Shown one piece after another: positions 4,915 through 64,000 of a stretch of DNA of 64,000 bases (positions are counted from its first letter, which is position 1; the number at the start of each line of letters is the position of its first letter). The position numbers were made by a program, and so were the translations under genes. The notes beneath the pieces are model-generated. The model worked only from the letters and a program-made list of their open reading frames with translations, searched no databases and was not told where the DNA came from. The DNA comes from Naegleria gruberi (lineage: Eukaryota), in the NCBI GenBank assembly GCA_000004985.1, contig GG738875.1; one strand, 5' to 3'.

Positions 4915-4995
4915 GTTGAGGTGGCCGAGTGGTTAAGGCGCCAGCCTGCTAAGTTGGTGGAGTAATCCGCGTGGGTTCGAATCCCATCCTCAACG
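4915..4995 (+). tRNA. tRNA-Ser (anticodon GCU), 81 nt, no encoded CCA, followed by a T4 Pol III terminator at 4996-4999
   Basis: Hand-folded cloverleaf. Acceptor stem GTTGAGG/CCTCAAC plus discriminator G. 3-bp D-stem GCC/GGC. Anticodon stem CCAGC/GTTGG with loop CTGCTAA (GCT at positions 34-36). Long variable arm. T-arm GTGGG-TTCGAAT-CCCAT. Confidence 0.85.
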
Positions 4996-22000: not shown

Positions 22001-24245
22001 CTTGAAATATTTGTAACAGAGAAAACAAATCTCCACCATCATTATGAAATAAACTCTTGCTCAACAATTTTGCTTGTGATTTTTTAAACAAAATATCAGA
22101 TATACTCATCATTGAAACAATAATAACCATTAAATCAGCTACACCCTTCAAATTTGCTTGAATAATCATTCTAGACAGTGTTGGTTCTGTCTGTAACTCA
22201 CAAGCCATAGTGCCAAACTCAGTGATGACACCTTCATGAACAAAGCCAAGCTTTTCCAGAGATCCAACCTCTTTAGTGATTCTTTCTATGGATGGCATTT
22301 CTAATAGTTCAAAAGCGTTTATATCGGTAACACCACATGATAATATTTGCAAAATAGATATACCAAGATGACTTCTCATAATTTCAGCTTCTGAAGCTAA
22401 TTTCATTCTCTGATATTCTACTTGTGGATATAATCTATAACATATTCCAGAACTATTTCTTCCTACTCTTCCTTTCCTTTGCAGAGCACAGGATTGAGAG
22501 ATGGAAACAGTTTTAAGTATTGACATATTCCTGTCATTATCATAGAATTTTTGTCTCATTAATCCAGAGTCTATAACTATTCTTAATGAAGGAATAGTAA
22601 TGGATGTTTCTGCAACATTTGTCGAAAATATAATCTTTCTCATAGACTTTGATTGATCGAAAATCTTTTTCAATTCAAAACTATCAATTTTTCCATGTAG
22701 AGCAATTATTTGGCAAGACGTTCCAAGGCTCTTTTTAGCCATTTTGCAACATTTGGTAACATCTTCTCTAGATGCAAGAAAAACCAGAATATCTCCTTCA
22801 TGTAGATTATTCTTGACAATGTCAGTAACCTTTCTAGTTGCCTGTTCACAAGTATTTGCTTCTCTTGAATGAGAGAAATACTCCACAACAGGGTAACTTT
22901 GATGTTCTAGTTTCTTGATTGGGCAGTTATCAAAAAACATTGAAAACAAATCTTCATTGATTGTTGCAGAGGATATCAAGACTTTTAAGGGATTGTTCAA
23001 AGCTCTTCTTCTCTTTACACAATCCTTTAATAATGAAAGTAGAATATCGGTATAAATTGATCTTTCATGCGCTTCATCAACAATAATAATAGAATAACTT
23101 AATAGGAGTTGATCATTCTGATACTCATTCAATAAACAACGATCTGTGACAAAATTAATAGATACTCTGTTGTTCCTTTTCCTTTTCTCGCCAAGCTTGC
23201 ATGAAACAATAGATTTATCTCTCAATTCTTCAGAAACTCTATTAGCAAGAGTGATACAGGTCAATTTTCTGGGTTGTGTGCATGCTATTGATTTATAGCC
23301 ATGTTCTAAAAGATACTGAGGAATTTGGGTACTCTTTCCAGCACCAGTAGAACAACTACAAATAACAACATCATTCTGGTCCAATAATTCCAAAATTTCG
23401 TTCCTTATCGAATAAATTGGGAGTCTGTTGGTGGTAATCCTTCCACATTCAATCTCTGTGGCCTTTAGCTTTTGCACCATACTGGTGGTTGATTGGAGAA
23501 TTAGCTTCATTCTTGCGGAGAATGTTTTGCATTGATTCTCTATCATTTTCAAATCATTAATTAATATTTGTACCTTTTCCAAGTACTTTTGATAGTCAAA
23601 CGTTTTAACAAGATGATGTTTGCTTTTGTTAATTTCCTCTTCCTTTTCCTTTAGCACATTCAAAGCCTGTACTATCTTGGTATCAATCAAATTCTTTAAT
23701 TTTTCATTACTATCTTGTTTGACGACACGTGTAGTTTTTTGCTGTTGTGGTTGTATAGTACTACTATTTTGTGCTGCATTTTCCTGTTGTTTTAATTTTG
23801 GTTGTTGAACAAGCTTTGCTTTCTTATTTTTCTTTTTTTTTAAATTATTTTCTAAAAGTTGTTTTGGTGGGTTTTCTTGTGAAACATATTGTTGTTTGTT
23901 TTCAACTTGGTTAATGATGGTTGGTGAAGACAATTTGCTTGTGAATGCTCCATTTTGTTGGTGATTTGAAGTTGCAAACTTTTTTCTTCTCTCCTCCTTT
24001 TTGATTTGATTGGAAGGAACTAGAGTTGATGTGTTTTTGCTGAGTTTGCTATTATTTGGATTATTCGATGATGTTATTTTGGAGGATGATGGAGTAGTGT
24101 CCTCATTATCATTGGTACTTTGTTTGATTGGTTCTGTAACTACTTTGTCTATTACCTTGACAAACAACTTTCGTTGTTGCGGTTTCTTCTTCTTCTTGAT
24201 TGCTGGATCATGCTCCACATTCACAGGGCTTGGTTTTGTATCCAT
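19035..24245 (-). CDS. Giant DEAH-box helicase fused to a C-terminal RING-between-RING (RBR) E3 ligase module; join(19035..19361,19422..24245), 60-nt intron inside RING2
   Basis: Helicase motifs I (GAGKST), II (DEAH in IIVDEAHERS), III (SAT) and VI (QRKGRVGR) are present. The C-terminus has RING1 (CPICFERM...CNHEICKDC), an IBR (CPKNCGSVC...CQTCNLSFCKEC) and RING2. RING2 reads CPSCSQRIEKSEGCNHMTCCYCGQHFCWLC only after removing the GTAAGT..AG intron; the ORF track reads through it. Confidence 0.65.
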   Translation of the reverse strand: MDTKPSPVNVEHDPAIKKKKKPQQRKLFVKVIDKVVTEPIKQSTNDNEDTTPSSSKITSSNNPNNSKLSKNTSTLVPSNQIKKEERRKKFATSNHQQNGAFTSKLSSPTIINQVENKQQYVSQENPPKQLLENNLKKKKNKKAKLVQQPKLKQQENAAQNSSTIQPQQQKTTRVVKQDSNEKLKNLIDTKIVQALNVLKEKEEEINKSKHHLVKTFDYQKYLEKVQILINDLKMIENQCKTFSARMKLILQSTTSMVQKLKATEIECGRITTNRLPIYSIRNEILELLDQNDVVICSCSTGAGKSTQIPQYLLEHGYKSIACTQPRKLTCITLANRVSEELRDKSIVSCKLGEKRKRNNRVSINFVTDRCLLNEYQNDQLLLSYSIIIVDEAHERSIYTDILLSLLKDCVKRRRALNNPLKVLISSATINEDLFSMFFDNCPIKKLEHQSYPVVEYFSHSREANTCEQATRKVTDIVKNNLHEGDILVFLASREDVTKCCKMAKKSLGTSCQIIALHGKIDSFELKKIFDQSKSMRKIIFSTNVAETSITIPSLRIVIDSGLMRQKFYDNDRNMSILKTVSISQSCALQRKGRVGRNSSGICYRLYPQVEYQRMKLASEAEIMRSHLGISILQILSCGVTDINAFELLEMPSIERITKEVGSLEKLGFVHEGVITEFGTMACELQTEPTLSRMIIQANLKGVADLMVIIVSMMSISDILFKKSQAKLLSKSLFHNDGGDLFSLLQIFQEYSQQSNKEEWSLKNNINVQYLKNAEMNLKDFKNKINFFKKKRIIRKECISKEQLLKESIIESQYQNLAYFDGYLPNMTKVYYIPSLKQRAFIHNSSHQFLGDPKPFILFSDLVRTDKLYMRNITPIDLKEILHFYPQLETNMIVSKVKEELRVKLPSIVSEDLKFRNTEFIEEVERQLGHVIEIDSTDSSIKVYCDQGERFNIISQIKEVIEIAKKRALSQILELEIENGLDDDSSGLRIMVSSGCKVKGLIFPNEFTKLQVDNLPLGCDDDTLRNLFLPYHTLDARVYSSLPNDSFASGYVVFTNFSVATTVYHKFKETYKLTPVLFNTKSSNESALVRLKWNIGPNNGYCLIGFKNGNNSATINNITHDRIFSSQLGPAGLRFQIKKTKNKDTLEIRNIYDHIDAKFVKVLLDNRHIDYHFVSILRRPVVVENDLIQGVLLSKVQSFQSLEFLDILNIDTYKQFGEALVCFTDQKDAKSAAQALNSTKFMGAILWANSIHRDSVTVPTEVTELLKFELQCLIDNCKAKIKYNTSRKNAENYKTEISIQSANLEDFNEAKKNVVALVKPLSLHLTHQTIQYASRKRKQLDQIENRNQVFISINSKTRTIEIFGLIDDKHNAKEEIMQLVEGHSKTLTIHLKYLKSITGNAGKPFQELKTQFANCDISLNVKTKELIVDGNEKDQHAIQQYVTELMENYEQNHNVEHTDDDCPICFERMTNPFRTIGCNHEICKDCFRFQIQNPNSFVCSCCEMDLSISEILMYLETKQEKTYTKALEDFLLENPESYKYCPKNCGSVCRIDGSDIICQTCNLSFCKECEKKSHKGQKCGDEDKTREWMNTKTKPCPSCSQRIEKSEGCNHMSKFLNLFISELTCSLILACCYCGQHFCWLCLKGFATGQATYAHFRAGSCLTFDVPPEIIRPRQVNPPVNNQIPLQLIPQPNPQPVPARIRPLIIPPQPQQLQQPQPNNPQPQPPQRQGLLNCLVM

Positions 24246-41514: not shown

Positions 41515-41633
41515 GGCTACGGCCATATCACGATGAATGCACCTCATCCCGTCCGATTTGAGAAGTTAAGCATCGTCGAGCCACATCAGTACTGAGGTTG
41601 GAGACAACTTGGGAACCTGTGGTGCTGTAGTCT
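41515..41633 (+). rRNA. 5S ribosomal RNA gene (~119 nt), followed by a T-run Pol III terminator
   Basis: Matches the eukaryotic 5S consensus from memory: GGCTACGGCCATATC...CATCCCGTCCGAT..GAAGTTAAGC...GTACT.AGGTTGGAGA...GGGAAC...GGTGCTGTAGTCT, then TTTT. Confidence 0.8.
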
Positions 41634-48561: not shown

Positions 48562-51500
48562 TTAACACCAAATCATTTGAACGAGCAAGATGACAATGCA
48601 ATAGAATGAAAGATGGGTTGCATTTGCAGATGCTAACTTGAAACTTCCCTGAGGAGTGGTAATGTTTGAATTTTGAACCTTTACAGATTGACTTGGTTTT
48701 GGGCCAGGTTTTGGAGAAGGTTTAGGAGAAGGACTTGAAGATTGTTGAGGAATTGGAGAAGGTTTAGGGGAAGGTTGTGGAGAAGGAACAGGTACCATTG
48801 AAGAACAGTTGAGTCCTGTGAAACCTGCAAAACAAGTGCAAGTATCTGGTTTGGAACAATTTCCATGTCCAGAACAAACCAAGCTGTCACTTTCAGTCTT
48901 ACCGTAACAAACAACTTGTTCACACTCTTTACCTGTATAACCAACATTACAAGTGCATTGATCATGGCCACTACAGCTTCCTCTTCCACCACATACAGAA
49001 ATAGAGTTTGAGGGTATACTAAAGCAGGTAGTCAATGAACAATCTACACCAAACCAATTTTCAGGGCAAGAAACTGATTTATGCTCACAGTTACTGCCAT
49101 AATAACCATCTTTACATGTACAATTATTAAATGAAGAACAAGTTCCATTACCTGAGCATACATTTGAGTTAACTTTTGATATACCATAACAATCATACAT
49201 TTCACAATTGGATCCATAATATCCAATTTCACAAGTACAATTGTTTGGAGAAGCACATTTTCCTTTTCCAGAACAAACAGTATTATTCATAAAATGTACT
49301 CCATAACAATTAAATTGATTGCAACTGCTTCCAAAATATTCATCAATGCAAGAACAGTTATTTGGAGATGGACACGATCCATGTGATGAACATACATTAG
49401 TGTCTGTTTTTGATACTCCATAACAATTGAAATTTTCACAATTATTACCAAAATAATCTTGTTGACAGGTGCAATTATTCAAAGAAGAGCAAACACCATT
49501 ACCTGAACACACATTAGAGTTGGATTTTGCAAAACCATTACAATCATACATTTCACAATTGCTGCCATAGTAACCTTGTTGACAGGTGCAGTTATTGGAT
49601 GAAACACAAGTTCCATGACTTGAACAAACACTTGAATTCAATTTAGAAATATTATCACAATCATATATTTCACAATTACTGCCATAGTAACCTTGTTGGC
49701 AAGTACAATTATTGAATGAAGAACAAACTCCATGAGCTGAGCATACATTTGAGTTAACTTTTGATATACCATAACAATCATACATTTCACAATTGGATCC
49801 ATAATATCCAATTTCACATGTACAATTATTTGGAGAAGCACATTTTCCTTTTCCAGAACACACAGAAGCATTACTAAACTTAACATTGAAACACTTGAAA
49901 TCTTCACAATTAATTCCAAAATATTCATCAATGCAAGAACAGTTATTTGGAGATAGACATGATCCATGTGATGAACATACATTAGTGTCTGTTTTTGATA
50001 CTCCATAACAATTGAAAATTTCACAATTATTACCATAATAATCTTGTTGACAGGTGCAATTATCGAATGAAGTGCAAACACCATGACCTGAACATGTATT
50101 TGAGTTGTTTTTGGATAAGCCATAACAATTATACATTTCACAATTGGATCCATAATAACCAATTTCACAAGTGCAATTATTTGGAGAAGCACATTTTCCT
50201 TTTCCAGAACACACAGAAGCATTACTAAACTTAACATTGAAACACTTGAACTCTTCACAATCATTACCAAAATAGCCTTCAAAACAAGAGCAATTATTTG
50301 GAGAGTTGCAAGTACCATGAGAAGAACACACCATTGTGTTTTTAGAACTAATACCGTTACAGACCACGTCTTGACAATACGAACCAGAGTATCCAGCATT
50401 ACAAGTGCAGTTATTCATACCAACACAAGCTCCTACCGATGAACATACTGTGCTAGAGTTGAAAGGAATAGAGTTACAATAAAAGTATTGACAAGTTTCA
50501 CCATAATAACCACTTGCACAAGAACAATTATTTGGAGATGCACAACTTCCATGGGATGAGCAAACGTTTGATTGATTATTCAATAAACCATAGCAATAAA
50601 ACTCCCCACAATTTGGACCAAAGTAATTGGTAGAGCACCAAGGAGTTAGGGTTCTAATCAGATTCATATCATTAATATAAATTTCACCAGTTGAACTAAT
50701 GGCAACTCCAGTAGGATTAATTAATCTAACACTTGTTGCAAAACCATCACTAATGAAATTAGTGGATCCTATAATTCCATTTCCTGCAATCGTTGAAATA
50801 ATACCAGTTGTTGTTATTCTACGAATTACATAATTGGAAGTATCAGCAATATAAACTTCTCCACTTGAACTAATGGCAATTCCATTTGGATAATTTAATT
50901 GAGCACTTGTTGCCAAACCACCATCACCACTATATCCAGAAAGTCCAGTTCCTGCAATTGTGGTGATATTTCCATCTGTTGTGATTTTACGAATTCTATT
51001 GTTAATTCTATCAGCAATATAAACTTCTCCACTTGAACTAATGGCAATTCCAGTAGGACTATTTAAATGAGCACTTGTTGCCAAACCACCATCGCCACCA
51101 TATGCTGCAAGTCCAGTTCCTGCAATTGTTGAAATAATACCACCTGTTGAGATTTTACGAATTCTATGATTGTTGGTGTCAGCAATATAAATTTCACCAT
51201 TTGCAGAAAACTCAAAAGTAGTAGCAGAAATATAAGCTGCAGTTGCAGCTATTCCGTCGCCTATACCACCAACTACAGTAAAAATGTTTCCTGATGTAAT
51301 TTTACGAATTCTATGATTGTTACTATCGGCAATATAAATATCACTAGTTGAGCTAATGGCAACTCCAGTAGGAAAATATATCTTGGCACTTGTTGCCAAA
51401 CCACCATCGCCACCATATGTAACAACTCCAGTTCCTGCAACGGTTGAAATAATACCAGATGTAGTAATTTTACGAATTCTATGATTGGCTCTATCGGCAA

Positions 51501-53372
51501 CATAAATTTCACCAGTTGAACTAATGGCAACTCCAGAGGGAGTGTTTAACTTGGCACTTGTTGCCAAGCCACCATCACCACTATATCCATTAGTTCCAGT
51601 TCCTGCAATTGTTGAAATAATACCAGCTGTGGAAATTTTACGAATTCTATGATTACCATAATCAGCAATATAAATTTCGCCAGTGGAACCAATGGCAATT
51701 CCAGTAGGAACGCTTAGTTTTGCACTTGTTGCCAAGCCACCATCACCACTATATCCATAAGTTCCAGTTCCTGCAATTGTTGAAATAATACCAGATGTTG
51801 TTACTTTACGAATCACATTATTGTTAGTATCAACAATATACATCTCACCAGTTGAACTAATTGCAATTCCAGAGGGAGTGTTTAATTGAGAACTGGTTGC
51901 CAAACCACCGTCACCATTATAACCAGAAAAAGTATTACCGTTTCCTGCAATTCTAGTAGTAAAAGATGTTACCATGTCTAGGTAATTATTACTATAAAGC
52001 ACATATAATACATTGTTGTAATATTTGGCAAATGTTGGGTTGTTGAATGATTGTACAACAGTTGTAGTACCAATTACGCCAGCAATAGTAGAAAGTGTTT
52101 TGGTGGAAAGGTCTATTTGTCTTACTTGATTAGTAGAATCCGCGAAAACAAGATATCCATTACTAAGGGTAGGGGAATTCATTGGTGAAATTATAGCCTT
52201 GGAAGCAGGAATATTATTACCAAAAGAAGATGTTCCAGCAAAAGTTGAAATAATACCAGATGTTGTCACTTTACGAATTCTACTATTGTCAGTATCAACA
52301 ATATATACTTCATCACTTGAACTGATTGCAATTCCATATGGATTGCTTAATTGAGCACTTGTTGCCAAACCACCATCACCATTGTATCCATCTCCATTCC
52401 TGCAAAAGTTGAAATAATACCAGATGTTGTCACTTTACGAATCACATTATTGTAAGTATCAGCAATATAAATTTCATCACTTGAACTGATTGCAATTCCA
52501 TACGGATTGTATAATTGAGCACTTGTTGCCAAATCCCATCACCATCATATCCTGCATTTCCAGTTCCTGCAAAAGTTGAAATAATACCAGATGTTGTCAC
52601 TTTACGAATTATATTATTGTTAGTATCAGCAATATACATTTCACCACTTGAACTGATTGCAATTCCATAAGGATTATATAATGAAGCACTTGTTGCCAAA
52701 CCACCATCACCACATATCCTGCATTTCCATTCCTGCAACAGTTGAGATAATACCAGATGTTGTTACTTTACGAATTCTCTGATTGTAAGTGTCAGCAATA
52801 TAAATTTCATCACTTGAACTGATTGCAATTCCAAAAGGATGATCTAATGAAGCACTTGTTGCCAAACCATCATCACCATCATATCCTGCACTTCCAGTTC
52901 CTGCAAAAGTAGAAATAATACCAGATGTTGTTACTTTACGAATTACATTATTGTTAGTATCAGCAATATACATATCACCAATTGAACTGATTGCAATTCC
53001 ATAAGGACTATATAGTGAAGCACTTATTGCCAAACCACCATCACCTACATATCCAACATTACCATTTCCTGCAACAGTTGAAATGGTTGAAATATTTCCA
53101 TATGTTGTCACTTTACGAATTCTCTGATTACCAGTATCAACAATATAAATTTCACCACTTGGACTGATTGCAACTCCATAAGGACCATATAACGGAGCAC
53201 TTGCTGGTGCTAATCCATCACCAATTAAAGAACCACCACCTGCAATAGCGGTGATATTATAAAAGGGTTGGCTTTGTGCATGCGTGATAACAGCGAGAAA
53301 GCAGCAGAACACAAATGTACCTAGTAATGTTATTAATTTCATTTTTTTTGGCAAATAACAGCATTGTGTCAC
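48562..53372 (-). CDS. Giant secreted NHL-repeat / EGF-repeat surface protein with predicted GPI-anchor signal. The N-terminal 52347..53372 region is broken by 3-4 frameshifts relative to the intact 48562..52368 frame
   Basis: Signal peptide [24 protein letters not shown]. About 14 tandem NHL units of ~57 aa (..[27 protein letters not shown]..GDGGLATSA). About 20 tenascin-type EGF units ([18 protein letters not shown]). Pro/Ser/Lys stalk and a hydrophobic C-terminus. 1-nt indels against the repeat consensus sit near 52380-52420, 52530-52545 and 52712-52733. Confidence 0.55.
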
Positions 53373-54509: not shown

Positions 54510-56513
54510 ATGCAAAGAGTTGCGTTTTTACTCTTGCTAATTGCATTTTGTTTACAAGTGACAGCTTTGGATGACATTTTCACACAACAAGATATTGGAA
54601 ATTTCATAGATAAAAGTCAAGTGGAAGAAGTTTATGTTTACGAACGATTACACAGCAACTTGATAACCATCAGAAACAAACTTGACATTTGGCAGGTAAA
54701 TCAATCATTAACAAACAGCACCAACACTACAAATTACGGAGGTTGCAATCCCATTCTCTTCCAACTTGGTGACTTTAGCAGAGATGGACCAAACGTCATT
54801 TATTCGATATGCCCTGACACTTGGCTTTCGACAGCCGTCTCCATAACCTTCCTGACAGCTTACGTCATTCTTCTAATAGTAACTGGAATTGGATTATACA
54901 TCAAAAGACACTCCCCTCACATCAAGGCAAGAAACATCACCTACATGCTATTGACAATGATTGCAAATCTTGGATTTATTGCTGTGCATTGTTTGAGATT
55001 TATGATTGGAAGAAGAATTTTCCCTTGTTCGATATATGTCCTGTCGTTTTTCATTGTACCACCTGGAATTTTGTTACCGAGTGTGTTTAGATTGTGGAGA
55101 TTGTACTTGATGCATCGATTGAATTTACAAAAGACGAGTGAAGTTTCGTCTCAGAAAGAAAATAGTGCTGGAAATGAGACAAAGGCTACAATGCCAACAG
55201 TTCAAAGTACTAGCTCTGTTCCAGCTAAGGTTCTTTCTCCATCCACTCCCAATCTAGAAAAGGATTGTAAAAATCCTGAAACCACTGACAGTACTCAAGA
55301 TTCCTATTCTGATGATAATAATTCCTATTGGAATGACAATGAACTCGAATTGAAAAAGAATGCAAAAATCCAAATGATTCTCAACATTTTACTGAGCCAC
55401 AAATTCGTAATTGCCACCTATGTCATCTCTTTCGTATTTCACATTCTACTCTTCATCTTTTTTGGAAGTATCGAAGAGGGAATCAATAGCCAAGATCCTT
55501 CCAAACAGAGAGTCTTCATGGGGGAAGGAGGATTCTTTGTGTCCACTCGAGGATGTCTCATATCCAGCACTATAACCATCATTGTGGCCATCGAAGCATT
55601 ATTCTACGTTGTAATTGAAATTATCTTGTTGATTTTATGTGCAATTATTCCAAGAGATACGTGGTTTATTAAGAGAGAATCAATTGCTTCGACGATTTTG
55701 ATATTTTTTGCAATTATTTTGTTTGCAATTTGTGGATTTATTCCACAAATTTCCAAGTTGACTGATTTTTTGATACCATATGGATTTATTGTAATGGGAT
55801 ATTCGTTTGTGGAAGTTATAATGTGTGTATTGTGTCCGATTTTGTATTCGAATGGTTTGAGAAGGGAACATTTGGCAGAATCTGAATTGAAACAATTTTT
55901 GAGGAATAAGAAAACTTTTAACATTTTGTTGGATTTTGCCAGAAGAAGGTAAGTTTATTATTCTTTCGAATAACTTTCTAATACTTTCTCTTGAAATAGT
56001 TACTGTCCTGAATCAGTAATGTGTTACGATGACATTGAAAGATTCAAATTGACAAATAAGAGAAATAGAAAACGAGCAGCTCTTCACATTATCAAAACTT
56101 ATCTGAAACCTCATGCTCCTCTAGAATTGAATTTCCAAAAATCAGCTCAAACCTACGAACAACTCATTCAATTATTAGAAACCTCGCCAACCATAGACAC
56201 AACCTTTTTCGATTCAATTCAATGGCATTGTGTAGAGGACATGACAGATGTATTCGAAAGGTTGAAAAATCAATCAAAGAAAACGAGGGATATTTTACAA
56301 CAGTGGAGAGAGGAAGCAGGAATTGATCAAGTTGGAAATGTGAATAATCAACAACAAGAATTGAAAAATACTATGAAATTGATTGATTCCATGTCAAGTG
56401 TGCCATCAACACCATCTGTTGTTACATCTGAAGCGTCGAATGGCGTGGCCATGGATTCAACAAATTCTGTAACATTGGAAAAAGAAGTGAAATCACCAGA
56501 GAGTAATTTGTAA
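54510..56513 (+). CDS. Seven-transmembrane protein with C-terminal RGS (regulator of G-protein signalling) domain; join(54510..55948,56000..56513), intron 51 nt (GTAAGT..AG)
   Basis: Signal peptide, glycosylated N-terminal ectodomain, seven predicted TM helices. After the splice the C-terminus reads an RGS box: LLDFARRSYCPESVMCYDDIERFKLTNKRNRKRAALHIIKTYLKPHAPLELNF...FFDSIQWHCVEDMTDVFERL. Confidence 0.6.
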
Positions 56514-57195
56514 TTTCATTTTCAGCTCAGAACTCAGTTCTCAAAGCAAAATACCATAGTGATGAAAATAAATGATGGAATGATGAAAAATATTCAAAGT
56601 TTATTTAAACTTGTGATTCACCATTATTTTCATCGTCACCAACAACAACAGCAACACATTCACCACACAACTTGTTCTTGTTGAGTAGCTCTTGTGTGGA
56701 AATTGTTTGTTCTTCAACAACGTTCTACTTCCTTTGGTTGTTCTGTCATTTCAACAACAACAACTTGTTGATTAGTAGTGGCAGCAACCTTTTCTTCTGG
56801 TTTCAGATGTGGCCGTAAGGATTTCTGGCTGGGGTATTCCAGGAAGGAGTTTCTTAAAAAAATCTTTCCTGGAAAATCCAGTAAGCAAAATAAAAATGGA
56901 AGCAATACTTCCTTAATAGTTTTGAGTCCTAAGCCAATTGCACAGTTTTGAGCCTCAAAGACATCGAAAGAATATTCATAGTAAACTCAACAAAGATGTA
57001 TCTTGCATTCATAAAAAATATCAATTTTATGAGTAGCTTATTTTCGGAGTGGTTCTTCATCTTCCCACTCCAAGAATTGAACCTCATCATCTATACATCA
57101 TCAATATAATAGTAATAATAGTAGTTTTATGTGGAAGTTTATCGTTATGGAATTAGATAGTAATTTTGATATTGGAAAAATTCAAGTTGGTGAAT

Positions 57196-58130
57196 CATCA
57201 TCATGGGGTTTGGTTAGGATTCAGAGTTGATTTATTTGGGTTATTTAAGAGATTACTTAGTGAAGATTTATATCATTGATTATATTTATTATCATCTATT
57301 AATGATGTTAATTTGATGGTTTCATTTCTTATATTGATAGATATTTAAAGGTCAGGTCAGAACTAACTTTTGTATTATGGACTTTGAGAAGTCAAATGTT
57401 TGGGACGTGAATCTACTCATTGGATTGAATAGGTATTGCTAATAAAGGAACATTTCATTGATTTATTGATTATAACGGTCAAATTGAGTTGAATGTAAGT
57501 GAATCACATGTTGATTCATCGTGGATGGGTAGTTTCGCCACGAAGTGGTGCAACTACCAACCTTTGTAGATTGAATCAGGTTGATTTGCATGCAATATGA
57601 ATAAGTAACATTATCAAGAGTGATTATTCACCAATTCAATAATCAATATTCAATAATCGGTTTGATTTCAATCAATAGCTTGCTCATCAAGCTTTGAATT
57701 AATATTCCAGTAATTAACGGCAGTCTATTTTTAAATTTAATCAAAGACCATATATAGTAGCTTGACTTTTATGATCTGGAAACTATCTAGATGTGTTTCT
57801 TTTTTGAATAATCTATTTGAAAATGAGAAGAATTAACTCTTCTATTGAGTTTTATTGGTATTGCAAGGTATTACGATTATAATAATCTACACAGAAATCA
57901 CTCTTAAATATAAACTGTACTACAATGTATGAGAAACATAATGGTGGTGGAATTAATCAATAACTCGTTGAAATGACTGAGATGGAATGTAAACTATGGT
58001 CTGTTTGTTATGTAGTGGTGACTAGACAGTGTCAATTTCATCAAATTATTTCAAACTGATAACATTCAATAAAATACCATTTACCTTGACACTAACGTGT
58101 CTAAGGTTGTAATCAATAATTTTTATGGTT
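57196..58130. repeat. Partial copy (~870 bp X segment only) of the 1.08-kb repeat that is tandemly duplicated at 60797..62990
   Basis: Long near-identical stretches against 60797.. and 61878.., for example TTGGGTTTGGTTAGGATTCAGAGTTGATTTATTTGGGTTATTTAAGAGATTACTTAGTGAAGATT. Contains a nested hairpin GGTAGTT-TCG-CCAC-GAA-GTGG-TGC-AACTACC at about 57526..57556. Confidence 0.6.
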
Positions 58131-58173
58131 GATAGAAATTATTCTAAAACATTGCTCAAAAAATTAGACCAAC

Positions 58174-59244
58174 ATGTCCTCTCCACAGAATCAAGATAAT
58201 CCAAATCTTCATCAAGAAGATCAACATATGGATCAACAACAACCTCAACAAACAGGAAACCAACTTAATGTACCAACTACACACCCTCCAAACTATGGAA
58301 ATTCTGCTCAACACCTTAACCAACCGACATTTGTACCTCAAAGTCTACCGCAAAGCCATCCTCAAAACTTTCCTTTCGGATTTCCCTATATGAACCCTTA
58401 TTACCCTCCTACACCTGGCTTTGGAGCATATTATCCATCCTATCCATCCTATCCACCTCAACACTTTCGTTCACCTCTTGAAATGAAGAAGAGAAAGTTG
58501 GATGAGAAAGACAAGAGTTTGTTTTTGGAGCACGATGAGGTTGATTCTACATTGAGTTCTGTTGAAGAAGACACACCTCAAGTTGTCAACAATGAGCGTT
58601 CCTTTTTATTATCCTTCATTAAAGAGAAGGGTTTAACCATCTCTGAGGATATAAATGATATAACAGACATCGCACTCACCTACATTGTCGAGAATGCGTA
58701 TGTTAATAAGTTTCTTAGTGATCCTAAATTTAAAGAATTAATGCATGAAGGTTTGATGAAATACTCTACTTCTTTGAAAATATGCATACCTACATTAGAT
58801 TTATCCCTCTTCAACTCAAGAGTAGTCAAGATACTTATGGAGTCCTATGACATTCTTGAAAGAATATCCGTTTGTATACGGAAAACCACAAGCTGCTCTT
58901 CAAGATTAGAATTAACTGGTCTATATCATGGTATCACTAAGATGACCAAGGGTTATGTTTTATCATCCGTGATAAAAAGTGGTAACATGGATGATGGTAT
59001 CTCTCTTATTGAAAAGATTATCAGTTACGTTAACCTAGATCCTTTTTTAAGCGAAGATATCGATCGTGAAAGAAAGAGTAGACTGGAAGTCACAACCAAC
59101 CAATTTATGGTTAGTCATATGAAGACAGCTAATAACTCCAATTCTAAGGCTACAGGTTCCAAGGATAATAAGACAACCTCTGACAAGAAGAACAATAAGA
59201 GTGTTGGCAAAAAACCTCAGAACCAGCCAACATTTCAGAAGTGA
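58174..59244 (+). CDS. Hypothetical Gln/Pro-rich protein (356 aa) between repeat copy and assembly gap; possibly gag-like ORF1 of a retroelement. A second overlapping ORF starts at 59201 and runs into the gap
   Basis: The Q/P-rich N-terminus, basic C-terminal tail and overlapping downstream ORF in another frame suit a retroelement ORF1. Position sits between repeat blocks. No direct motif match. Confidence 0.3.
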   Translation: MSSPQNQDNPNLHQEDQHMDQQQPQQTGNQLNVPTTHPPNYGNSAQHLNQPTFVPQSLPQSHPQNFPFGFPYMNPYYPPTPGFGAYYPSYPSYPPQHFRSPLEMKKRKLDEKDKSLFLEHDEVDSTLSSVEEDTPQVVNNERSFLLSFIKEKGLTISEDINDITDIALTYIVENAYVNKFLSDPKFKELMHEGLMKYSTSLKICIPTLDLSLFNSRVVKILMESYDILERISVCIRKTTSCSSRLELTGLYHGITKMTKGYVLSSVIKSGNMDDGISLIEKIISYVNLDPFLSEDIDRERKSRLEVTTNQFMVSHMKTANNSNSKATGSKDNKTTSDKKNNKSVGKKPQNQPTFQK

Positions 59245-59424
59245 ATTTCTGGGGGGACAGATTTCTCTCTTTTGGGAGAGATGGAGAGACAGACAAGTTT
59301 CTCCAACTGTGCTGGATTGGATCAAGAATGGTGTAACAATTCAATCCGACTGTTCCCGATGGAAGAACTTCGGTTCAAACTCCATCAAGAAACACCAAGA
59401 AACCTGGCTCGACAACGAGCTAGA

Positions 59425-59474
59425 NNNNNNNNNNNNNNNNNNNNNNNNNNNNNNNNNNNNNNNNNNNNNNNNNN
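59425..59474. other. Assembly gap (50 N)
   Basis: Run of N characters. Confidence 0.99.
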
Positions 59475-59483
59475 TTATCATTG

Positions 59484-60796
59484 TCTTTTCTTAGTGAACT
59501 TTTCCTTCATCCTAATTATTAAGGAATTTTTACAAAGAGATGGAAAATGTTCAAAACTGGCTATAGATGGTATAATTCCATTGAACTATACTCAAATTCT
59601 TAATAATGATTGAGATTGGTCGATTTTTCACAACTGTTATCTTTGAAACAGTGATTTCATCCAACCACTCTTTACTAACAACTCCATGGACTGGCTCAAA
59701 CCCGTTGTAAAATTAAATTAAACTTTCTTAAATGAGCTTGGTGTGGCTCAAACCCGGTGTGCTTACGTAAAATTCAATCGGAATACAATTTTAACTGGTA
59801 TTCTGGCAAAGAGCCAACATTTTCACAATTAAACTTTCTTACTGAACTTTGAATATTTCACATAGGTAGGAATTTTTTCAAGTAGATGGAAAATGTTCCA
59901 AAATCGATAGAAATGGTACCAGTCCTTTACAGTACACTTAAATTCTCAAAAATGATTGAGATCAGTCGATTTTTCACAACTGTAATCTTTAAAACAGTGG
60001 TTGTCATCCAACCCGATGTAACAACTACTATTAAATGTTTCAAATGAGCTTGGAGTTGCTCAAACCCGTTGCTTCTTTTCAAAAAAGAGACTTATCCAAC
60101 CTTTTGAATGAGACTGTATTATACTATACAACAAATTAAAATTTTTATATTCTTACTGAACTTTTCTTACTTCACAATTATTAAGGAAGTTTTACAAGTG
60201 GTTGGAAAATGTTCAAAACTGTATGTATATGGTAACATTCCATTGGAGTATACTTAAATTCTAAGAAATGATTGAGATTGATCGATTTTTCACAACTGTA
60301 ATCTTTAAAACAGTGATTGTCATCCAACCCGCTTGTGGACTTGTGGAACAAATTGAAATTGTTTCAGATGAACGTGAAGTGGCTCAAACCCGTTGCTTCT
60401 TTTCAAAAAAGTTCCTGATCGAGCAATGTGATGAGGCTGGAATATACTATTCAACAAAGTAAATTGTTTGCAATCTTACTGAACTTTGAATATTTCAAAA
60501 TTATTAAGGAATTTTTTCAAGTAGATGGAAAATGTTCTAAACTGTATGTAGATAGTAACATTCCATTGGAGTGTACTCAAAATCTCAAAAATGATTGAGA
60601 TTTTCCATTTTTTCACAACTGTAATCTTTAAAACAGTGATTGTCATCCAACCCGATGTAAAAACCACTTGAAATTGTTTCAAATGAACGTGGATTGGCTC
60701 AAACCCGTTGATTATATTCATGAAAGTGGATTTCAGACCTTTTGACAATTCCTTACAATAAGGAACTATAAGTTTATGAAATATTTCTATCTTAGT
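59484..60796. repeat. Satellite-like tandem repeat, 4 units of ~320 bp (unit starts near 59484, 59831, 60158, 60478), roughly 80% mutual identity
   Basis: Recurring blocks CTTACTGAACTTTGAATATTTCA.AATTATTAAGGAATTTTT.CAAG.AGATGGAAAATGTTC.AAACTG... and ...GGCTCAAACCCGTTG... in every unit. Confidence 0.6.
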
Positions 60797-62990
60797 TGGG
60801 TTTGGTTAGGATTCAGAGTTGATTTATTTGGGTTATTTAAGAGATTACTTAGTGAAGATTCATATCATTGATTATATTTCTTATCATCTATTAATGATGT
60901 AAATTTGATGGTTTCATTTCTTGTATTGATAGATATTTAAAGGTCAGGTCAGTATCAACTTTTGAATTATGGACTTTTAGAAGTCAAATGTTTGGGACGT
61001 GAATCTACTCATTAGATTGAATAGGTATTGCTAATAAAGGAACATTTCATTGATTTATTGATTATAACGGTCAAATTGAGTTGAATGGAAGTGAATCAGA
61101 TGTTGATTCATCGTGGTTGGGTAGTTTCGCCACGTAGTGGTGCAACTACCAACCTTTGTAGATTTAATCAGGTTGATTTGCATGCAATATGAATAAGTAA
61201 CATTATCAAGAGTGATTATTCACCAATTCAATAATCAATATTCAATAATCGGTTTGATTTCAATCAATACCTTGATCAACAAATCAAGATTCCAGTAATT
61301 AACGGCAGTCTATTTTTAAATTTAATCAAAGACCATATATAGTAGCTTGACTTTTATGATATGGAAACTATCTAGATGTGTTCTATATTGAATAATCTAT
61401 TTGAAAATGAGATGAATTAACTCTTCTATTGAGTTTTATTGGTATTGTATGCTATTACGATTATAATAATCTACACAGAAATCACTCTTGAAATATAAAC
61501 TGTAGTAGAACGTTTGAGAAACATAATGGTGGCGGAATTAACCAATAACTCGTTGAAATGACTGAGATGGAATGTAAACTATGGTCTATTTGTCATGTAA
61601 TGGTGACTAGACCGTGTCAATTTCATCAAATTATTTCAAACTGATTACAATCAATAAAAACCCGTTCCATACATATCATATAGAATGAGTTTCAATATTT
61701 AATATTGTGAACTGACTCTGTTGGATACCATCTCTATAAATATAACAAGATGAAAAGTGTCAACATTCAATTACACATGCATCTAACTATGGAGAATCAT
61801 CATTATATCATCTAGATAGGTAATATTTCAAGTTTCAGTGGAATTGACTGTCTACATATTGAGATGTGTATACTAGGTTGGGTTTGGTTAGGATTCAGAG
61901 TTGATTTATTTGGGTTATTTAAGAGATTACTTAGTGAAGATTCATATCATTGATTATATTTCTTATCATCTATAAATGATGTAATTTTGATGGTTTCATT
62001 TCTTATATTGATAGATATTTAAAGGTCAGGTCAGTACTAACTTTTGAAATATGGACTTTGAGAATTCAAATGTTTGGGACGTGAATCTACTCATTAGATT
62101 GAAAGGGTATTGCTAATAAAGGAACATTTCATTGATTTATTGATCATAACGGTCAAATTGAGTTGAATGGAAGTGAATCACATGTTGATTGATCGTGGAT
62201 GGGTAGTTTCGCCACGTAGTGGTGCAACTACCAACCTTTGTAGATTGAATCACGTTGATTTGCATCAATCTTCAATATGTATCATTATCAAGAGTGATTA
62301 TTCACCAATTCAATGATCAATATTCAATAATCGGTTTGATTTTCAATCAATAACTTGATCATCAAGCTTTGAATTAATATTCCAGTAATCAACGGCAGTC
62401 TATTTTTAAATTTAATCAAAGACCATATATAGTAGCTTGACTTTTATGATTTGGAAACTATCTAGATTTGTTCTATATTGAATAATCTATTTGAAAATGA
62501 GATGAATTAACTCTTCAATTTAGTTTATTGATATTACTATATAAATGGTATTATTTCTTACAGAGTCTTCCACAGAACTCACTCTTGAAATATTAATTGT
62601 ACTAGAGCGTGTGAGAAACATAATGGTGGTGGAGTTAATCAATAACTCTTTGAAATGACTGAGATGGAATGTAAACTATGGTCTATTTGTCTTGTAATGG
62701 TGACCTGACAGTGTCAATTTCATCAAATTATTTCAAATTGATTACATTCAATAAAAAACCGTTCTATACATCAAACATGTCATATAGAATGAGTTTCAAT
62801 ATTTAATATTATGAACTGACTCTGTTGGATACCATCTCTATAAATATAACAAGATGAAAAGTGTCAACATTCAATTACACATGCATGTTACTATGAAGAG
62901 TCATCATTATATCATCTAGATAGGTAATATTTCAAGTTTCAGTGGAATTGACTGTCTACATATTGAGATGTGAATACTAAGGCTGATGAA
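60797..62990. repeat. Two direct tandem copies of a ~1.08-kb repeat (X ~870 bp + Y ~215 bp; copies at 60797..61877 and 61878..~62990), ~95% identical to each other and to the partial copy at 57196
   Basis: Read by eye: long identical runs, a conserved nested hairpin (near 61126 and 62206), and the Y tail (...CCGTTC.ATACAT...CATATAGAATGAGTTTCAATATTTAATATT...) after both copies. Confidence 0.65.
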
Positions 62991-63095
62991 GTGTCACCTT
63001 CACTGATTACTGACATGAGAAAGACAATTGAATATATTATTCTTGTATAAATAATTCATTTATCAACGATTTTGATATGATGGTAAAATTTAATT

Positions 63096-63145
63096 NNNNN
63101 NNNNNNNNNNNNNNNNNNNNNNNNNNNNNNNNNNNNNNNNNNNNN
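63096..63145. other. Assembly gap (50 N)
   Basis: Run of N characters. Confidence 0.99.
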
Positions 63146-63984
63146 GCCAGAGAAGCGAGAATCATTTACAAAATATTGTTCAAGATGAAATGGGTAATTC
63201 TGAAGGTGTCTTATATTCCCACAACCTCGAACACTATAGCAGATTCCCTGTCCCGTTTAGGGGAATGGACAACCTCCAAGAATTTATTCCAATATCTCAA
63301 TTCCCAATTTGGCCCATTTACAGTGGACAGATTTGCTTCCAAGCACAATCACCACTTAGTGAAGTTCAATTCATGGAACACACACCAAGATGCATTCAAG
63401 GAGAATTGGAATATGGACAACAATTATATGGTACCACCACTAGGTATGATTCCACCAACACTGATACAAATTATCAAGAACCAAGCGAAGGGTTTATTGA
63501 TTATTCCAGATTGGAAAACCTCTTGGTGGTATCCTGTGGCTTTAAGGATCTCAGTAAAGACAGAACCATTTCAGAGAAAGATGCTTTGCAGCTTACCCTT
63601 GTCAGAACTTCAGAAAAACTCAAAATGGACTCAATTCTTAGCAATTCAAGTGGACGGGAGTCTATATTGAGGAAGTTAAAAAGTTTGATAATCGAATCTC
63701 AATACGTACCATCCTACGCATTCAAATTATGGAGATGTTTCAAACGTTTTCAGACATTGAGATATTGGCATCAACTTCCCTTCAATACTGAAGCTGCTGA
63801 ATTGTTCATATTAGATGAACTATTGATTGGTAAAGGTTGGGAAATACCTGTTATCAAATCATCACTTGTATTTTTTGCGATGCTCCTTGATATTCCATTT
63901 GTATGGAAGGAAGAACTAAACAATCTAGTTACAGGTGCAAGCAGAATCTGGGGTTTGGATCCCATGTCAACCCCTATTTATTAA
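63146..63984 (+). mobile_element. Fragment of a DIRS-like (tyrosine-recombinase-group) retrotransposon pol ORF: C-terminal end of RNase H plus downstream conserved region; frame switch near 63650
   Basis: Translation YIPTTSNTIADSLSRL is the typical RNase H C-terminal ADxLSR motif. It is followed by FTVDRFAS..N....KFNSW......DAFKENW.....YMVPPLGMIPPTLIQII.....GLLIIPDWKTSWWYP. From memory this matches the segment between RNase H and the methyltransferase-like domain in DIRS-type elements. Confidence 0.45.
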
Positions 63985-64000
63985 GCTTTTCTCCTTAAAA

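What the first reader, a model, noticed from the sequence alone, without database searches (positions are those of the whole stretch)
57196..63984. Repeat-rich terminal region: split 1.08-kb direct repeats, 320-bp satellite, gag-like ORF and DIRS-like pol fragment around two assembly gaps
After 57 kb of dense genes the window switches to repeats. A partial 1.08-kb repeat is followed by a Q/P-rich ORF with an overlapping second ORF running into gap 1. Then come four ~320-bp satellite units, two complete tandem 1.08-kb repeats, gap 2 and a pol fragment with the RNase H ADxLSR terminus and the downstream conserved region typical of DIRS-type retroelements. Repeats in direct orientation flanking ORFs, with an extra tandem copy at one side, resemble the split direct repeats of Ngaro/PAT/DIRS-group elements. 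In dictyostelid-like genomes DIRS elements pile up at centromeric regions, so this edge may border a DIRS-rich cluster. The 1.08-kb repeat also carries a conserved nested hairpin: GGTAGTT..CCAC-loop-GTGG..AACTACC. Its loop reads GAA in one copy and GTA in the other two, with both stems preserved.
Basis: partly seen in the sequence, partly recalled or inferred. Interest (0 to 1): 0.5.

Follow-up and report, generated by a model that had tools for sequence, protein, structure and literature searches.

The report
Broken tyrosine-recombinase retrotransposon in Naegleria gruberi
The repeat-rich end of this window holds decayed, gap-broken pieces of a DIRS-order (tyrosine-recombinase) retrotransposon in the amoeboflagellate Naegleria gruberi; this is an ordinary kind of mobile element, already reported in the species, and the only modest addition is that its repeats are direct and split (PAT-like), not inverted.

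Summary
Three copies of a ~1.08-kb repeat (91-94% identical), four ~320-bp tandem units, two 50-N gaps, a 356-aa ORF, an overlapping second ORF and a pol fragment all lie where described, give or take a base. The window is Naegleria gruberi NEG-M, not a dictyostelid.

The pol fragment is the RNase H end plus the methyltransferase-like domain typical of DIRS/PAT elements. Its long relatives are RT-RNaseH-MT polyproteins. The ORF that overlaps its end is the start of a tyrosine recombinase. The ORF that overlaps the gag-like ORF is the pol N-terminus.

The 5' repeat copy lacks the last ~200 bp of the unit (A only). The two tandem copies read A-B-A-B. No inverted copy is present in the window.

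The closest named relative, in Willaertia magna, is a 4.9-kb element with A1-gag-pol-YR-B1-A2-spacer-B2. So this is a PAT-like (MT plus split direct repeats) member of the DIRS order, old and probably inactive.

The gaps leave open whether one element was mis-scaffolded or several fragments lie side by side. The hairpin is real and strong, but three copies cannot show selection. The centromere idea has no support. DIRS-like sequences in N. gruberi were reported in 2011. Interest is low to moderate.

The parts
57195..58081 (+). A1: 5' copy of the terminal repeat (A part only, ~887 bp). It ends ~90 bp upstream of the ORF1 ATG and carries AATAAA at 58068, near its 3' end.
   Evidence: It is 94.3% identical to A2 and 91.1% to A3. 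Similarity stops at ~58081, where copies 2 and 3 continue into B.
57528..57560 (.). Imperfect hairpin/palindrome inside A (14-nt arms, 3-nt loop GAA). The same structure lies at 61120-61152 and 62202-62234 (loop GTA). In copy 2 the stem extends to 17 bp.
   Evidence: RNA-parameter MFE is -18.6 to -21.6 kcal/mol, among the best 0.16% of 40-nt windows. DNA z is -3.4 to -3.7.
58174..59244 (+). ORF1, 356 aa: Q/P-rich N-terminus, helical middle, K-rich tail. It is gag-like by position only. GenBank annotates it as 'predicted protein [Naegleria gruberi]'.
   Evidence: No family hit. No homologue except itself among 5.8 billion proteins. AlphaFold pLDDT 40.
59121..59424 (+). N-terminus of the pol (RT) ORF, in the +1 frame relative to ORF1. 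It has no ATG, overlaps the ORF1 end, and has an A6 run at 59209-59214 in the overlap. Gap 1 cuts it off.
   Evidence: frames. It aligns to residues 32-89 of the RT-RH-MT protein P0165 (E 7e-12) and to the N-terminus of P0019 (E 1e-5).
59425..59474 (.). Assembly gap 1 (50 N).
59475..60750 (+). Four tandem ~320-bp units (first one cut by the gap), 69-82% identical and non-coding. No relation to the element was found.
   Evidence: No similarity to the repeat, the relatives' loci or Rfam.
60787..61666 (+). A2: second copy of the A part, first member of the A-B-A-B block.
61667..61870 (+). B1: the ~200-bp part of the repeat unit that is absent from the 5' copy.
   Evidence: (family D5). It is 96.0% identical to B2 and shows no similarity to the ORF1 5' leader.
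61871..62763 (+). A3: third copy of the A part.
62764..62979 (+). B2: second copy of the B part and right end of the A-B-A-B block. It is followed by 116 bp of unique sequence (62980-63095).
63096..63145 (.). Assembly gap 2 (50 N).
63146..63670 (+). C-terminal pol fragment: end of RNase H (YIPTTSNTIADSLSRL) plus the methyltransferase-like domain (FTVDRFAS...NYMVPPLG...IPDWKTSWWYP). The motif IV equivalent reads VPPL, so the domain is probably catalytically dead.
   Evidence: Pfam PF05869 Dam, E 4.1e-10, 40 bits against a cut-off of 28.1. 4344 relatives. Long relatives are RVT_1 + RT_RNaseH + Dam. Published view that DIRS MT domains are inactive: PMC4738411.
63688..63984 (+). Start of the tyrosine-recombinase ORF (N-terminal DNA-binding part), in the -1 frame relative to pol. 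The open frame begins upstream and overlaps the pol end. It stops at 63984, where homologues continue.
   Evidence: It is 52% identical to the ORF downstream of pol in L002/L003. It is 66% identical to P0016, which carries R..K..HxxR and Pfam Phage_integrase at E 7e-4. The W. magna equivalent aligns at E 5e-7. The L005 equivalent has Phage_integrase at E 3e-5.

Best explanation
The region contains decayed pieces of a tyrosine-recombinase (DIRS-order) retrotransposon of Naegleria gruberi. Its architecture is PAT-like. The coding order is ORF1 (gag position), then pol with RT, RNase H and a dead methyltransferase-like domain, then YR. The termini are split direct repeats, not inverted repeats.

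Three pieces are visible:
1. A 5' end: A1, ORF1 and the pol N-terminus.
2. An A-B-A-B block. This is what the split-repeat layout A1-[internal]-B1-A2-B2 becomes when the internal region is missing, or it is two tandem solo A-B units.
3. A 3' piece: the pol C-terminus and the YR start.

Inferred mechanism, by analogy with the published DIRS/PAT model and not shown here:
- Transcription starts in A1 and ends after the AATAAA at the end of A2.
- Reverse transcription uses the redundant B1-A2-B2 region to rebuild complete ends.
- The result is a circular double-stranded DNA with a B-A junction.
- The element's own tyrosine recombinase inserts that circle without a target-site duplication.

These copies are old and probably inactive. 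The A copies differ by 6-9%. pol has no ATG and needs a +1 shift. The YR frame stops early.
For: Organism: exact matches to six N. gruberi NEG-M proteins on a 396-kb scaffold.

pol identity:
- Pfam Dam/MT-like above the gathering cut-off.
- 4344 relatives; of ten long relatives scanned with Pfam, eight have RVT_1 and nine the Dam-like domain, with the matched stretch near the C-terminus as here.
- The pol N-terminus matches the N-termini of such proteins.
- About 383 aa (~1.15 kb, the RT and most of RNase H) are missing between the two fragments.

YR.

Gene order: ORF1-pol-YR with the YR overlapping the pol end is seen intact in metagenome relative L005.

Termini:
- A1 lacks B and abuts the ORF1 leader.
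- A-B-A-B lies downstream.
- No inverted repeat of 30 nt or more lies in 56500-64000.
- The left edge of A is the same in three different upstream contexts.

Relative: the closest named relative is Willaertia magna KAL9658538, 50% identical. It lies in a ~4.9-kb element. A1 (178 nt) ends 3 nt before the gag ATG. Then come pol, a decayed YR, B1 (46 nt), A2 (99.4% identical to A1), a 340-bp spacer and B2 (100% identical to B1).

Definitions of DIRS / PAT / Ngaro and of split direct repeats: PMC4157794, PMC6681497, PMC7192593.
Against: - No RT domain is present in the window itself.
- ORF1 has no detectable homology to any Gag.
- The scaffold order places the A-B-A-B block upstream of the pol-C/YR fragment, not downstream. 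No single canonical element can therefore be read from the sequence as assembled.
- The canonical 3' end is B1-A2-B2, whereas here an extra A precedes B1.
- The full N. gruberi assembly could not be reached. Copy number, a full-length copy, and co-occurrence of the repeat with the ORFs elsewhere are untested.
- A published survey assigned N. gruberi elements to DIRS1-like, not PAT-like, by tBLASTx similarity (PMC3266345). It did so without termini or phylogeny.
Confidence: 0.8

Rival explanations
1. There is one nearly full-length element whose middle contig is misplaced. Contig 1 (A1-ORF1-pol N) and contig 3 (pol C-YR...) would be two halves of a single copy, with ~1.15 kb of RT/RNase H missing. 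The contig between the gaps (satellite + A-B-A-B) would belong downstream of the YR or elsewhere.
For: - Both fragments are on the same strand and in the right order. Together they lack only the ~383 aa between residue ~89 and ~473 of a 645-aa relative.
- Both gaps are exactly 50 N, which looks like a placeholder size.
- Moving the middle contig downstream would give A1-ORFs-...-A-B-A-B, close to the canonical layout.
- Such complex patterns are attributed to assembly problems in other YR elements (PMC6681497).
Against: - Nothing in the window tests contig order.
- Even after reordering, an extra A and the satellite would sit between the YR and B1.
- A1 differs from both other A copies by 6-9%, whereas A1 and A2 of the W. 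magna element are 99.4% identical.
Confidence: 0.35
2. One reading: this is the edge of a DIRS-rich, centromere-like cluster, as in Dictyostelium, with DIRS1-type elements piling into one another.
For: - At least two, possibly three, element pieces and a satellite lie within 7 kb, after 57 kb of dense genes.
- DIRS-1 inserts preferentially into itself and marks centromeres in D. discoideum (PMC7192593).
Against: - The organism is N. gruberi.
- Published counts are low: 7 DIRS1-like sequences in 6 families in N. gruberi (PMC3266345), and repeats make up 5.1% of the genome (PMC6125883).
- ORF1 has no paralogue among annotated proteins.
- There are no inverted terminal repeats.
- No copy of the repeat or satellite lies in the other 57 kb.
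- Sequence beyond position 64000 is not available.
Confidence: 0.07
3. The 1.08-kb repeat and the satellite are host tandem repeats unrelated to the retroelement, which merely inserted next to them.
For: - Co-occurrence of the repeat with the ORFs is seen only once, at A1-ORF1.
- The repeat has no sequence similarity to the W. magna termini.
- There is a weak B-like remnant upstream of A1: local alignment score 30 against a shuffle mean of 19.6, with 2 of 300 shuffles reaching it. This could mean the ORFs sit inside an older A-B array.
Against: - A1 stops ~90 bp before ORF1 on the same strand, as in W. magna, where A1 stops 3 nt before the gag ATG.
- A-only at the 5' end plus B-A-B downstream is the diagnostic split-repeat pattern (PMC6681497).
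- A has one sharp left edge in three contexts.
- Both species have a CAATAA(A/G) motif close to the 3' end of A.
Confidence: 0.08
4. This is an LTR retrotransposon (Ty3/gypsy- or copia-like) with 1.08-kb LTRs.
For: Direct repeats of about LTR size flank a gag-position ORF and a pol with the RNase H 'ADxLSR' motif, which is shared with Ty3/gypsy-type RNase H.
Against: - The 5' copy is incomplete (no B), whereas an LTR would be whole.
- pol continues into an MT-like domain and then a tyrosine recombinase, not a DDE integrase.
Confidence: 0.02

Closest known systems
PAT-like elements of the DIRS group (Pat1 of Panagrellus redivivus, Kangaroo of Volvox, Toc3 of Chlamydomonas)
   Same: - ORF1, then pol with RT-RNase H-methyltransferase-like domain, then tyrosine recombinase.
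- Termini in direct orientation and split: A at the 5' end, B-A-B at the 3' end.
- No DDE integrase.
Definitions are from PMC4157794 and PMC6681497. The features were tested.
   Different: - The A part is very long (~890 bp, against 178 nt in the Willaertia relative and 83-381 bp in the kinetoplastid VIPER/TATE examples of PMC6681497).
- The window shows A-B-A-B, not B-A-B.
- The Willaertia relative has a 340-bp spacer between A2 and B2.
- No phylogeny against named PAT references could be made.
- The host is a heterolobosean.
DIRS1-like elements (DIRS-1 of Dictyostelium discoideum); N. gruberi 'DIRS1-like' sequences of Piednoel et al. 2011 (PMC3266345)
   Same: - Same protein set, including the MT-like domain and overlapping ORFs.
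- The 2011 survey found 7 sequences in 6 families in N. gruberi and assigned them to DIRS1-like by tBLASTx. This locus may well be one of them.
   Different: - DIRS1-like elements have inverted terminal repeats and an internal complementary region.
- Here the repeats are direct and no inverted copy exists in the window or in the Willaertia element.
- The 2011 assignment used neither termini nor phylogeny, because the copies had too many frameshifts.
Ngaro and VIPER/TATE (YR retrotransposons with split direct repeats; VIPER/TATE are the other Discoba examples)
   Same: Split direct repeats A1...B1-A2-B2, and a tyrosine recombinase. SIRE of T. cruzi equals A2+B2, a repeat-only derivative comparable to the A-B units here (PMC6681497).
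   Different: Ngaro and VIPER lack the MT-like domain (PMC4157794), whereas this pol has it. In the PMC6681497 tables the VIPER/TATE ORFs are listed as Gag-like, YR, RT/RH, which appears to place YR before RT.
Willaertia magna element at JBEGDK010000002.1 (gene model KAL9658538.1, 'hypothetical protein')
   Same: It is the closest named relative: 50% identity over the whole pol fragment, a homologous YR start, and the same order A1-ORF1-pol-YR-B1-A2-B2.
   Different: - No nucleotide similarity in the repeats, which are much shorter.
- It has an 84-nt palindrome across the B1/A2 junction (z -7.3). The N. gruberi B/A junction lacks this; its hairpin sits 330 nt inside A.
- ORF1 similarity is marginal (E 0.03).

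Membership tests
DIRS order (tyrosine-recombinase retrotransposons) | pol with reverse transcriptase and RNase H | tested here: inconclusive
   The RT itself is not in the window; it lies in a gap or is absent. The N-terminal 58 aa and C-terminal 173 aa flanking it match the ends of proteins that carry RVT_1 and RT_RNaseH. The RNase H end motif IADSLSRL is present.
DIRS order (tyrosine-recombinase retrotransposons) | Tyrosine recombinase instead of a DDE integrase, encoded next to pol | tested here: met
   - The ORF overlapping the pol end is 66% identical to P0016, which has RPSD...K...HGHSMRIG and Phage_integrase at E 7e-4, below Pfam's cut-off.
- Equivalent ORFs in L005 (Phage_integrase E 3e-5) and W. 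magna align to it.
- Only the N-terminal ~98 aa are inside the window, so the catalytic residues of this copy are not visible.
DIRS group sensu stricto (DIRS1-like + PAT-like) | Methyltransferase-like domain after RNase H | tested here: met
   Pfam PF05869 E 4.1e-10, 40 bits against a cut-off of 28.1, residues 39-127 of the fragment. The same domain is at the same place in relatives.
PAT-like | Split direct repeats: A1 at the 5' end; B1, A2, B2 at the 3' end | tested here: inconclusive
   A1 without B lies upstream of ORF1, and B-A-B is present within an A-B-A-B block. The block is not joined to the 3' end of the ORFs in the scaffold as assembled. The criterion is met, apart from a 340-bp spacer, in the W. 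magna relative.
DIRS1-like | Inverted terminal repeats plus an internal complementary region | tested here: not met
   No inverted repeat of 30 nt or more lies in 56500-64000. All three repeat copies are in direct orientation. There are no inverted termini in the W. magna element. The right end of the pol-C/YR piece lies beyond the window.
Ngaro / VIPER | Split direct repeats and YR, but no MT domain | tested here: not met
   The MT-like domain is present.
DIRS order | Gag-encoding ORF1 upstream of pol | tested here: inconclusive
   - A 356-aa ORF is in the right place and overlaps pol.
- It has no Pfam or PHROGs hit and no similarity to ORF1 of L005/L007.
- Similarity to W. magna ORF1 is marginal (E 0.03).
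- The AlphaFold model is unusable, with pLDDT 40.
- No zinc knuckle is present.
DIRS order | Insertion without target-site duplication | tested here: inconclusive
   The flanks of the A-B-A-B block (…tatcttagtt | … | aggctgatga…) show no duplication. This is a single old insertion, and no empty site is available for comparison.
LTR retrotransposons | Two complete LTRs and a DDE integrase | tested here: not met
   The 5' repeat lacks B. pol is followed by MT and YR.

The most novel reading that the evidence does not exclude
Heterolobosean amoebae (Naegleria, Willaertia) would carry their own lineage of MT-bearing YR retrotransposons with split direct repeats. That would mean the PAT-like architecture exists in Discoba, where only the MT-less VIPER/TATE were structurally described. 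In N. gruberi, the ~1.1-kb A-B unit with its strong internal hairpin would persist or move as a repeat-only, non-autonomous derivative (A-B-A-B), with the hairpin serving as a recombinase or RNA-level signal.
Probability: 0.3. Interest if true: 0.35.

Novelty: new member of a known kind. Interest (0 to 1): 0.22.

Why it matters
Mostly as annotation.

- It identifies an unannotated stretch and one 'predicted protein' of the N. gruberi reference as transposon remnants.
- It flags two scaffold joins that should not be trusted.

A modest scientific point follows. The 2011 survey left the status of DIRS-like elements in Excavata uncertain and called the N. gruberi copies DIRS1-like on similarity alone. 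The termini seen here and in Willaertia are split direct repeats. This bears on how often inverted versus split-direct termini arose among tyrosine-recombinase retrotransposons. It does not open a new mechanism.

Tried and rejected
- Fetching the rest of the N. gruberi scaffold or other genomic copies failed. ORF1, its database twin P0015 and another window protein are 'not on record' for contig look-up. Copy number and sequence beyond 64000 therefore stayed out of reach.
- The homologue search with ORF1 found only itself.
- The word-indexed search with the pol fragment found only 3 proteins. The exhaustive HMMER search was needed.
- A metagenome scan for the hairpin sequence gave 0 matches. 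A metagenome scan for close relatives of the pol fragment gave 0 confirmed loci.
- The single-sequence AlphaFold model of ORF1 has pLDDT 40, so no fold search was run.
- ORF1 gave no PHROGs or Pfam hit.
- Rfam found nothing in 57000-64000. Neither the satellite nor the hairpin is a known RNA.
- The idea that the hairpin's 3' arm (TGGTGCAACTACC...) is a tRNA primer-binding site was checked only against the one tRNA in the window (tRNA-Ser). It does not match, so the idea was dropped as untestable.
- The 116-bp tail after B2 was compared with the ORF1 leader and with the satellite, and the leader with B. None showed similarity above shuffles.
- L001-L003 (metagenome relatives) are 5'-truncated copies next to host genes and give no terminal information.
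- L007 has no 3' end.
- L006 (an MT+YR protein of an unidentified organism) was not analysed further.


Full report
**1. What is in the sequence**

The region was read directly and the features were checked with repeat, tandem-repeat and ORF tools and with scripts.

- Two runs of exactly 50 N lie at 59425-59474 and 63096-63145. They split the region into three contigs.
- A ~1.08-kb unit occurs three times in direct orientation: ~57195-58081, 60787-61870 and 61871-62979.
- The first copy stops about 200 bp short of the unit's end and runs into a 90-bp leader and an ATG.
- I call the shared 887-bp part A and the ~200-bp part found only in copies 2 and 3 B.
- The layout is therefore A1 / ORFs ... 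gap ... satellite / A2-B1-A3-B2 / 116 bp / gap / ORFs.
- Substitution identities are A1-A2 94.3%, A1-A3 91.1%, A2-A3 91.7% and B1-B2 96.0%.
- No other copy lies in the first 57 kb, and no inverted repeat of 30 nt or more lies in 56500-64000.
- Four tandem units of ~320 bp fill 59475-~60750. They are 69-82% identical, with TRF period 323 and score 1126.

**2. Which organism**

Six ORFs elsewhere in the window are exact matches to GenBank proteins of Naegleria gruberi strain NEG-M, all on one 396,166-bp scaffold. The genome is heterolobosean, not dictyostelid. The 356-aa ORF is itself annotated there as 'predicted protein'.

**3. The coding pieces**

*Pol C-terminal fragment (63146-63670).*
- It contains YIPTTSNTIADSLSRL followed by FTVDRFAS ... 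NYMVPPLG ... IPDWKTSWWYP.
- It matches Pfam PF05869 (Dam-type methyltransferase) at E 4.1e-10, above the curated cut-off.
- An exhaustive HMMER search found 4344 relatives.
- Of ten long relatives scanned with Pfam, eight have RVT_1 and nine the Dam-like domain, some also with RT_RNaseH. The stretch matching the query lies near the C-terminus, as here.
- Distant relatives include anuran proteins.
- This is the RT-RH-MT pol that defines the DIRS group. The motif IV equivalent reads VPPL, consistent with the published view that DIRS MT domains are catalytically dead (PMC4738411).

*Pol N-terminus (from ~59121/59201 into gap 1).*
- This ORF overlaps the end of the 356-aa ORF.
- It aligns with residues 32-89 of a 645-aa RT-RH-MT protein (E 7e-12) and with the N-terminus of another (E 1e-5).
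- It is in the +1 frame relative to ORF1 and has no ATG. The overlap contains an A6 run.
- About 383 aa (~1.15 kb, the RT and most of RNase H) are missing between the two pol fragments.

*Tyrosine recombinase start (to 63984).*
- This ORF overlaps the pol end.
- It is 52% identical to the ORF that follows pol in metagenome relatives.
- It is 66% identical to a 240-aa protein carrying RPSD ... K ... HGHSMRIG, with a sub-threshold Phage_integrase match at E 7e-4.
- The corresponding ORFs of two other relatives align to it, and one has Phage_integrase at E 3e-5.
- In the window the frame stops at 63984, where homologues continue. The cause may be decay, or an intron or frameshift that cannot be resolved 16 bp from the window's end.

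*ORF1 (58174-59244).*
- It has a Q/P-rich N-terminus, a predicted helical middle and a lysine-rich tail.
- It has no family hit, no homologue but itself, no similarity to ORF1 of relatives, and an unusable AlphaFold model.
- 'gag' is therefore a positional label only.

**4. Terminal structure and the closest relative**

The literature separates three groups (PMC4157794, PMC6681497, PMC7192593):
- DIRS1-like: MT domain, inverted terminal repeats and an internal complementary region.
- PAT-like: MT domain, split direct repeats (A1 at the 5' end; B1-A2-B2 at the 3' end).
- Ngaro/VIPER: split direct repeats, no MT domain.

In the window, the 5' copy is A only, and B-A-B occurs downstream within A-B-A-B.

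The best named relative of the pol fragment (50% identity) is a Willaertia magna 'hypothetical protein'. Its locus could be fetched. It shows a ~4.9-kb element between a glycosyltransferase gene and a tubulin gene, with this layout:
- A1 (178 nt), ending 3 nt before the ORF1 ATG.
- ORF1, pol and a decayed YR.
- B1 (46 nt), directly followed by A2 (99.4% identical to A1).
- A 340-bp spacer.
- B2 (100% identical to B1).

This is a split-direct-repeat element with an MT domain in a sister genus. Both species have CAATAA(A/G) near the 3' end of A.

I conclude that the N. gruberi family is PAT-like in architecture.

**5. What the arrangement in the window means**

A-B-A-B is exactly A1-[internal]-B1-A2-B2 with the internal region removed. 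It may be an internally deleted element or two tandem solo A-B units. T. cruzi SIRE, which equals A2+B2 of VIPER, is a precedent (PMC6681497).

The block has the same left edge as A1 but a different upstream flank. At least two insertions or rearrangements therefore share that terminus.

As assembled, the block lies between the 5' and 3' halves of the coding region. Either the middle contig is misplaced and contigs 1 and 3 are one element, or three fragments lie side by side. Nothing in the window decides this, and both gaps have the same placeholder size.

The 6-9% divergence among the A copies contrasts with 99.4% in Willaertia. With the missing pol ATG and the early YR stop, it indicates old, probably inactive copies.

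**6. The hairpin**

- GGTAGTTTCGCCAC-GWA-GTGGTGCAACTACC is present in all three A copies.
- It is by far the most stable local fold in each copy, and its energy falls among the best 0.16% of 40-nt windows in the 64 kb.
- It exceeds shuffles (z -3.4 to -3.7 as DNA).
- With three copies at 91-94% identity, two variable positions in 40 against a 13% background is not significant (P = 0.09). One of the two changes weakens an outer pair.
- It is not a known RNA, and no exact copy exists in JGI metagenomes.
- The Willaertia element has instead an 84-nt palindrome across the B1/A2 junction (z -7.3). That junction is the sequence a circular intermediate would carry, which makes a recombinase-site role plausible there.
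- In N. gruberi the hairpin lies 330 nt inside A, and its role is open.

**7. The satellite**

No similarity was found to the repeat, the ORFs, the relatives' loci or Rfam. It starts at the edge of gap 1, so it may be longer. Whether it belongs to the element is unknown. I treat it as neighbouring tandem DNA.

**8. Known or new**

- Piednoel et al. 2011 (PMC3266345) found 7 DIRS1-like sequences in 6 families in N. gruberi. They were too frameshifted for phylogeny and were assigned by tBLASTx only.
- N. lovaniensis is reported with 0.32% DIRS (PMC6125883).
- The presence of such elements is therefore known.
- The split-direct-repeat termini in Heterolobosea appear not to have been described in the papers I could search. 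That is a refinement, not a new kind of system.
- The centromere idea is carried over from Dictyostelium (PMC7192593) and has no support here.

**9. Verdict**

This is an ordinary but correctly spotted transposon remnant: a PAT-like member of the DIRS order, in N. gruberi, broken by two unreliable scaffold joins. Interest 0.22.

Noticed in passing
window 59195-59250: ORF1 and pol overlap by ~44-120 nt. pol is in the +1 frame and has no ATG. The overlap contains GGC AAA AAA CCT (an A6 run). Loss of one A, a +1 ribosomal shift, or transcriptional slippage would fuse ORF1 to pol.
   Followed up: partly
window 57083-57136: The sequence ~60 nt upstream of A1 aligns weakly with the distal part of B (score 30 against shuffle mean 19.6, sd 2.8; 2 of 300 shuffles reach it). 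Also, the 11 nt left of the A-B-A-B block (tatcttagtt) resemble the end of B (tatactaggtt). These could be remnants of older B copies or a preferred target resembling the B/A junction.
   Followed up: partly
L004 14155-14244 (Willaertia magna JBEGDK010000002.1): An 84-nt near-perfect nested palindrome straddles the B1/A2 junction of the related element (DNA fold -21 kcal/mol, z -7.3). It is a candidate recombination site at what would be the circle junction.
   Followed up: partly
L004 10001-13205: The W. magna gene model KAL9658538.1 (694 aa, 'hypothetical protein') splices the decayed gag and pol of the retrotransposon into one protein with invented introns. This is an annotation artefact.
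   Followed up: partly
window 41515-41633 (+): A 5S rRNA gene (Rfam RF00001, 105 bits) lies between protein-coding genes.
   Followed up: no
window 4915-4995 (+): tRNA-Ser (GCT).
   Followed up: no
window 48562-53372 (-): A very large gene, or gene pair, encodes NHL-type repeats followed by dozens of EGF-like Cys-rich repeats and a P/S-rich stalk. It looks like a surface protein.
   Followed up: no
window 19035-24245 (-): A 1736-aa ORF has motifs that look like a DEAH-type helicase in the N-terminal half and a Cys-rich, RING/IBR-like C-terminus (by eye from the translation; no domain search was run). Its exact sequence is not in the protein collection, so the annotated model probably differs.
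   Followed up: no
L001 3342-4665 (ENA metagenome contig): A related element copy is 5'-truncated within RNase H, at about the point where the window's contig 3 begins. It carries a frameshift and abuts a host gene encoding DUF4116-like repeats.
   Followed up: partly
L006 8001-9806 (GCA_977066275.1): A 601-aa protein of an unidentified eukaryote combines the MT-like domain with tyrosine-recombinase N-terminal (Phage_int_SAM) signatures in one ORF. It may be a pol-less or rearranged YR element.
   Followed up: no
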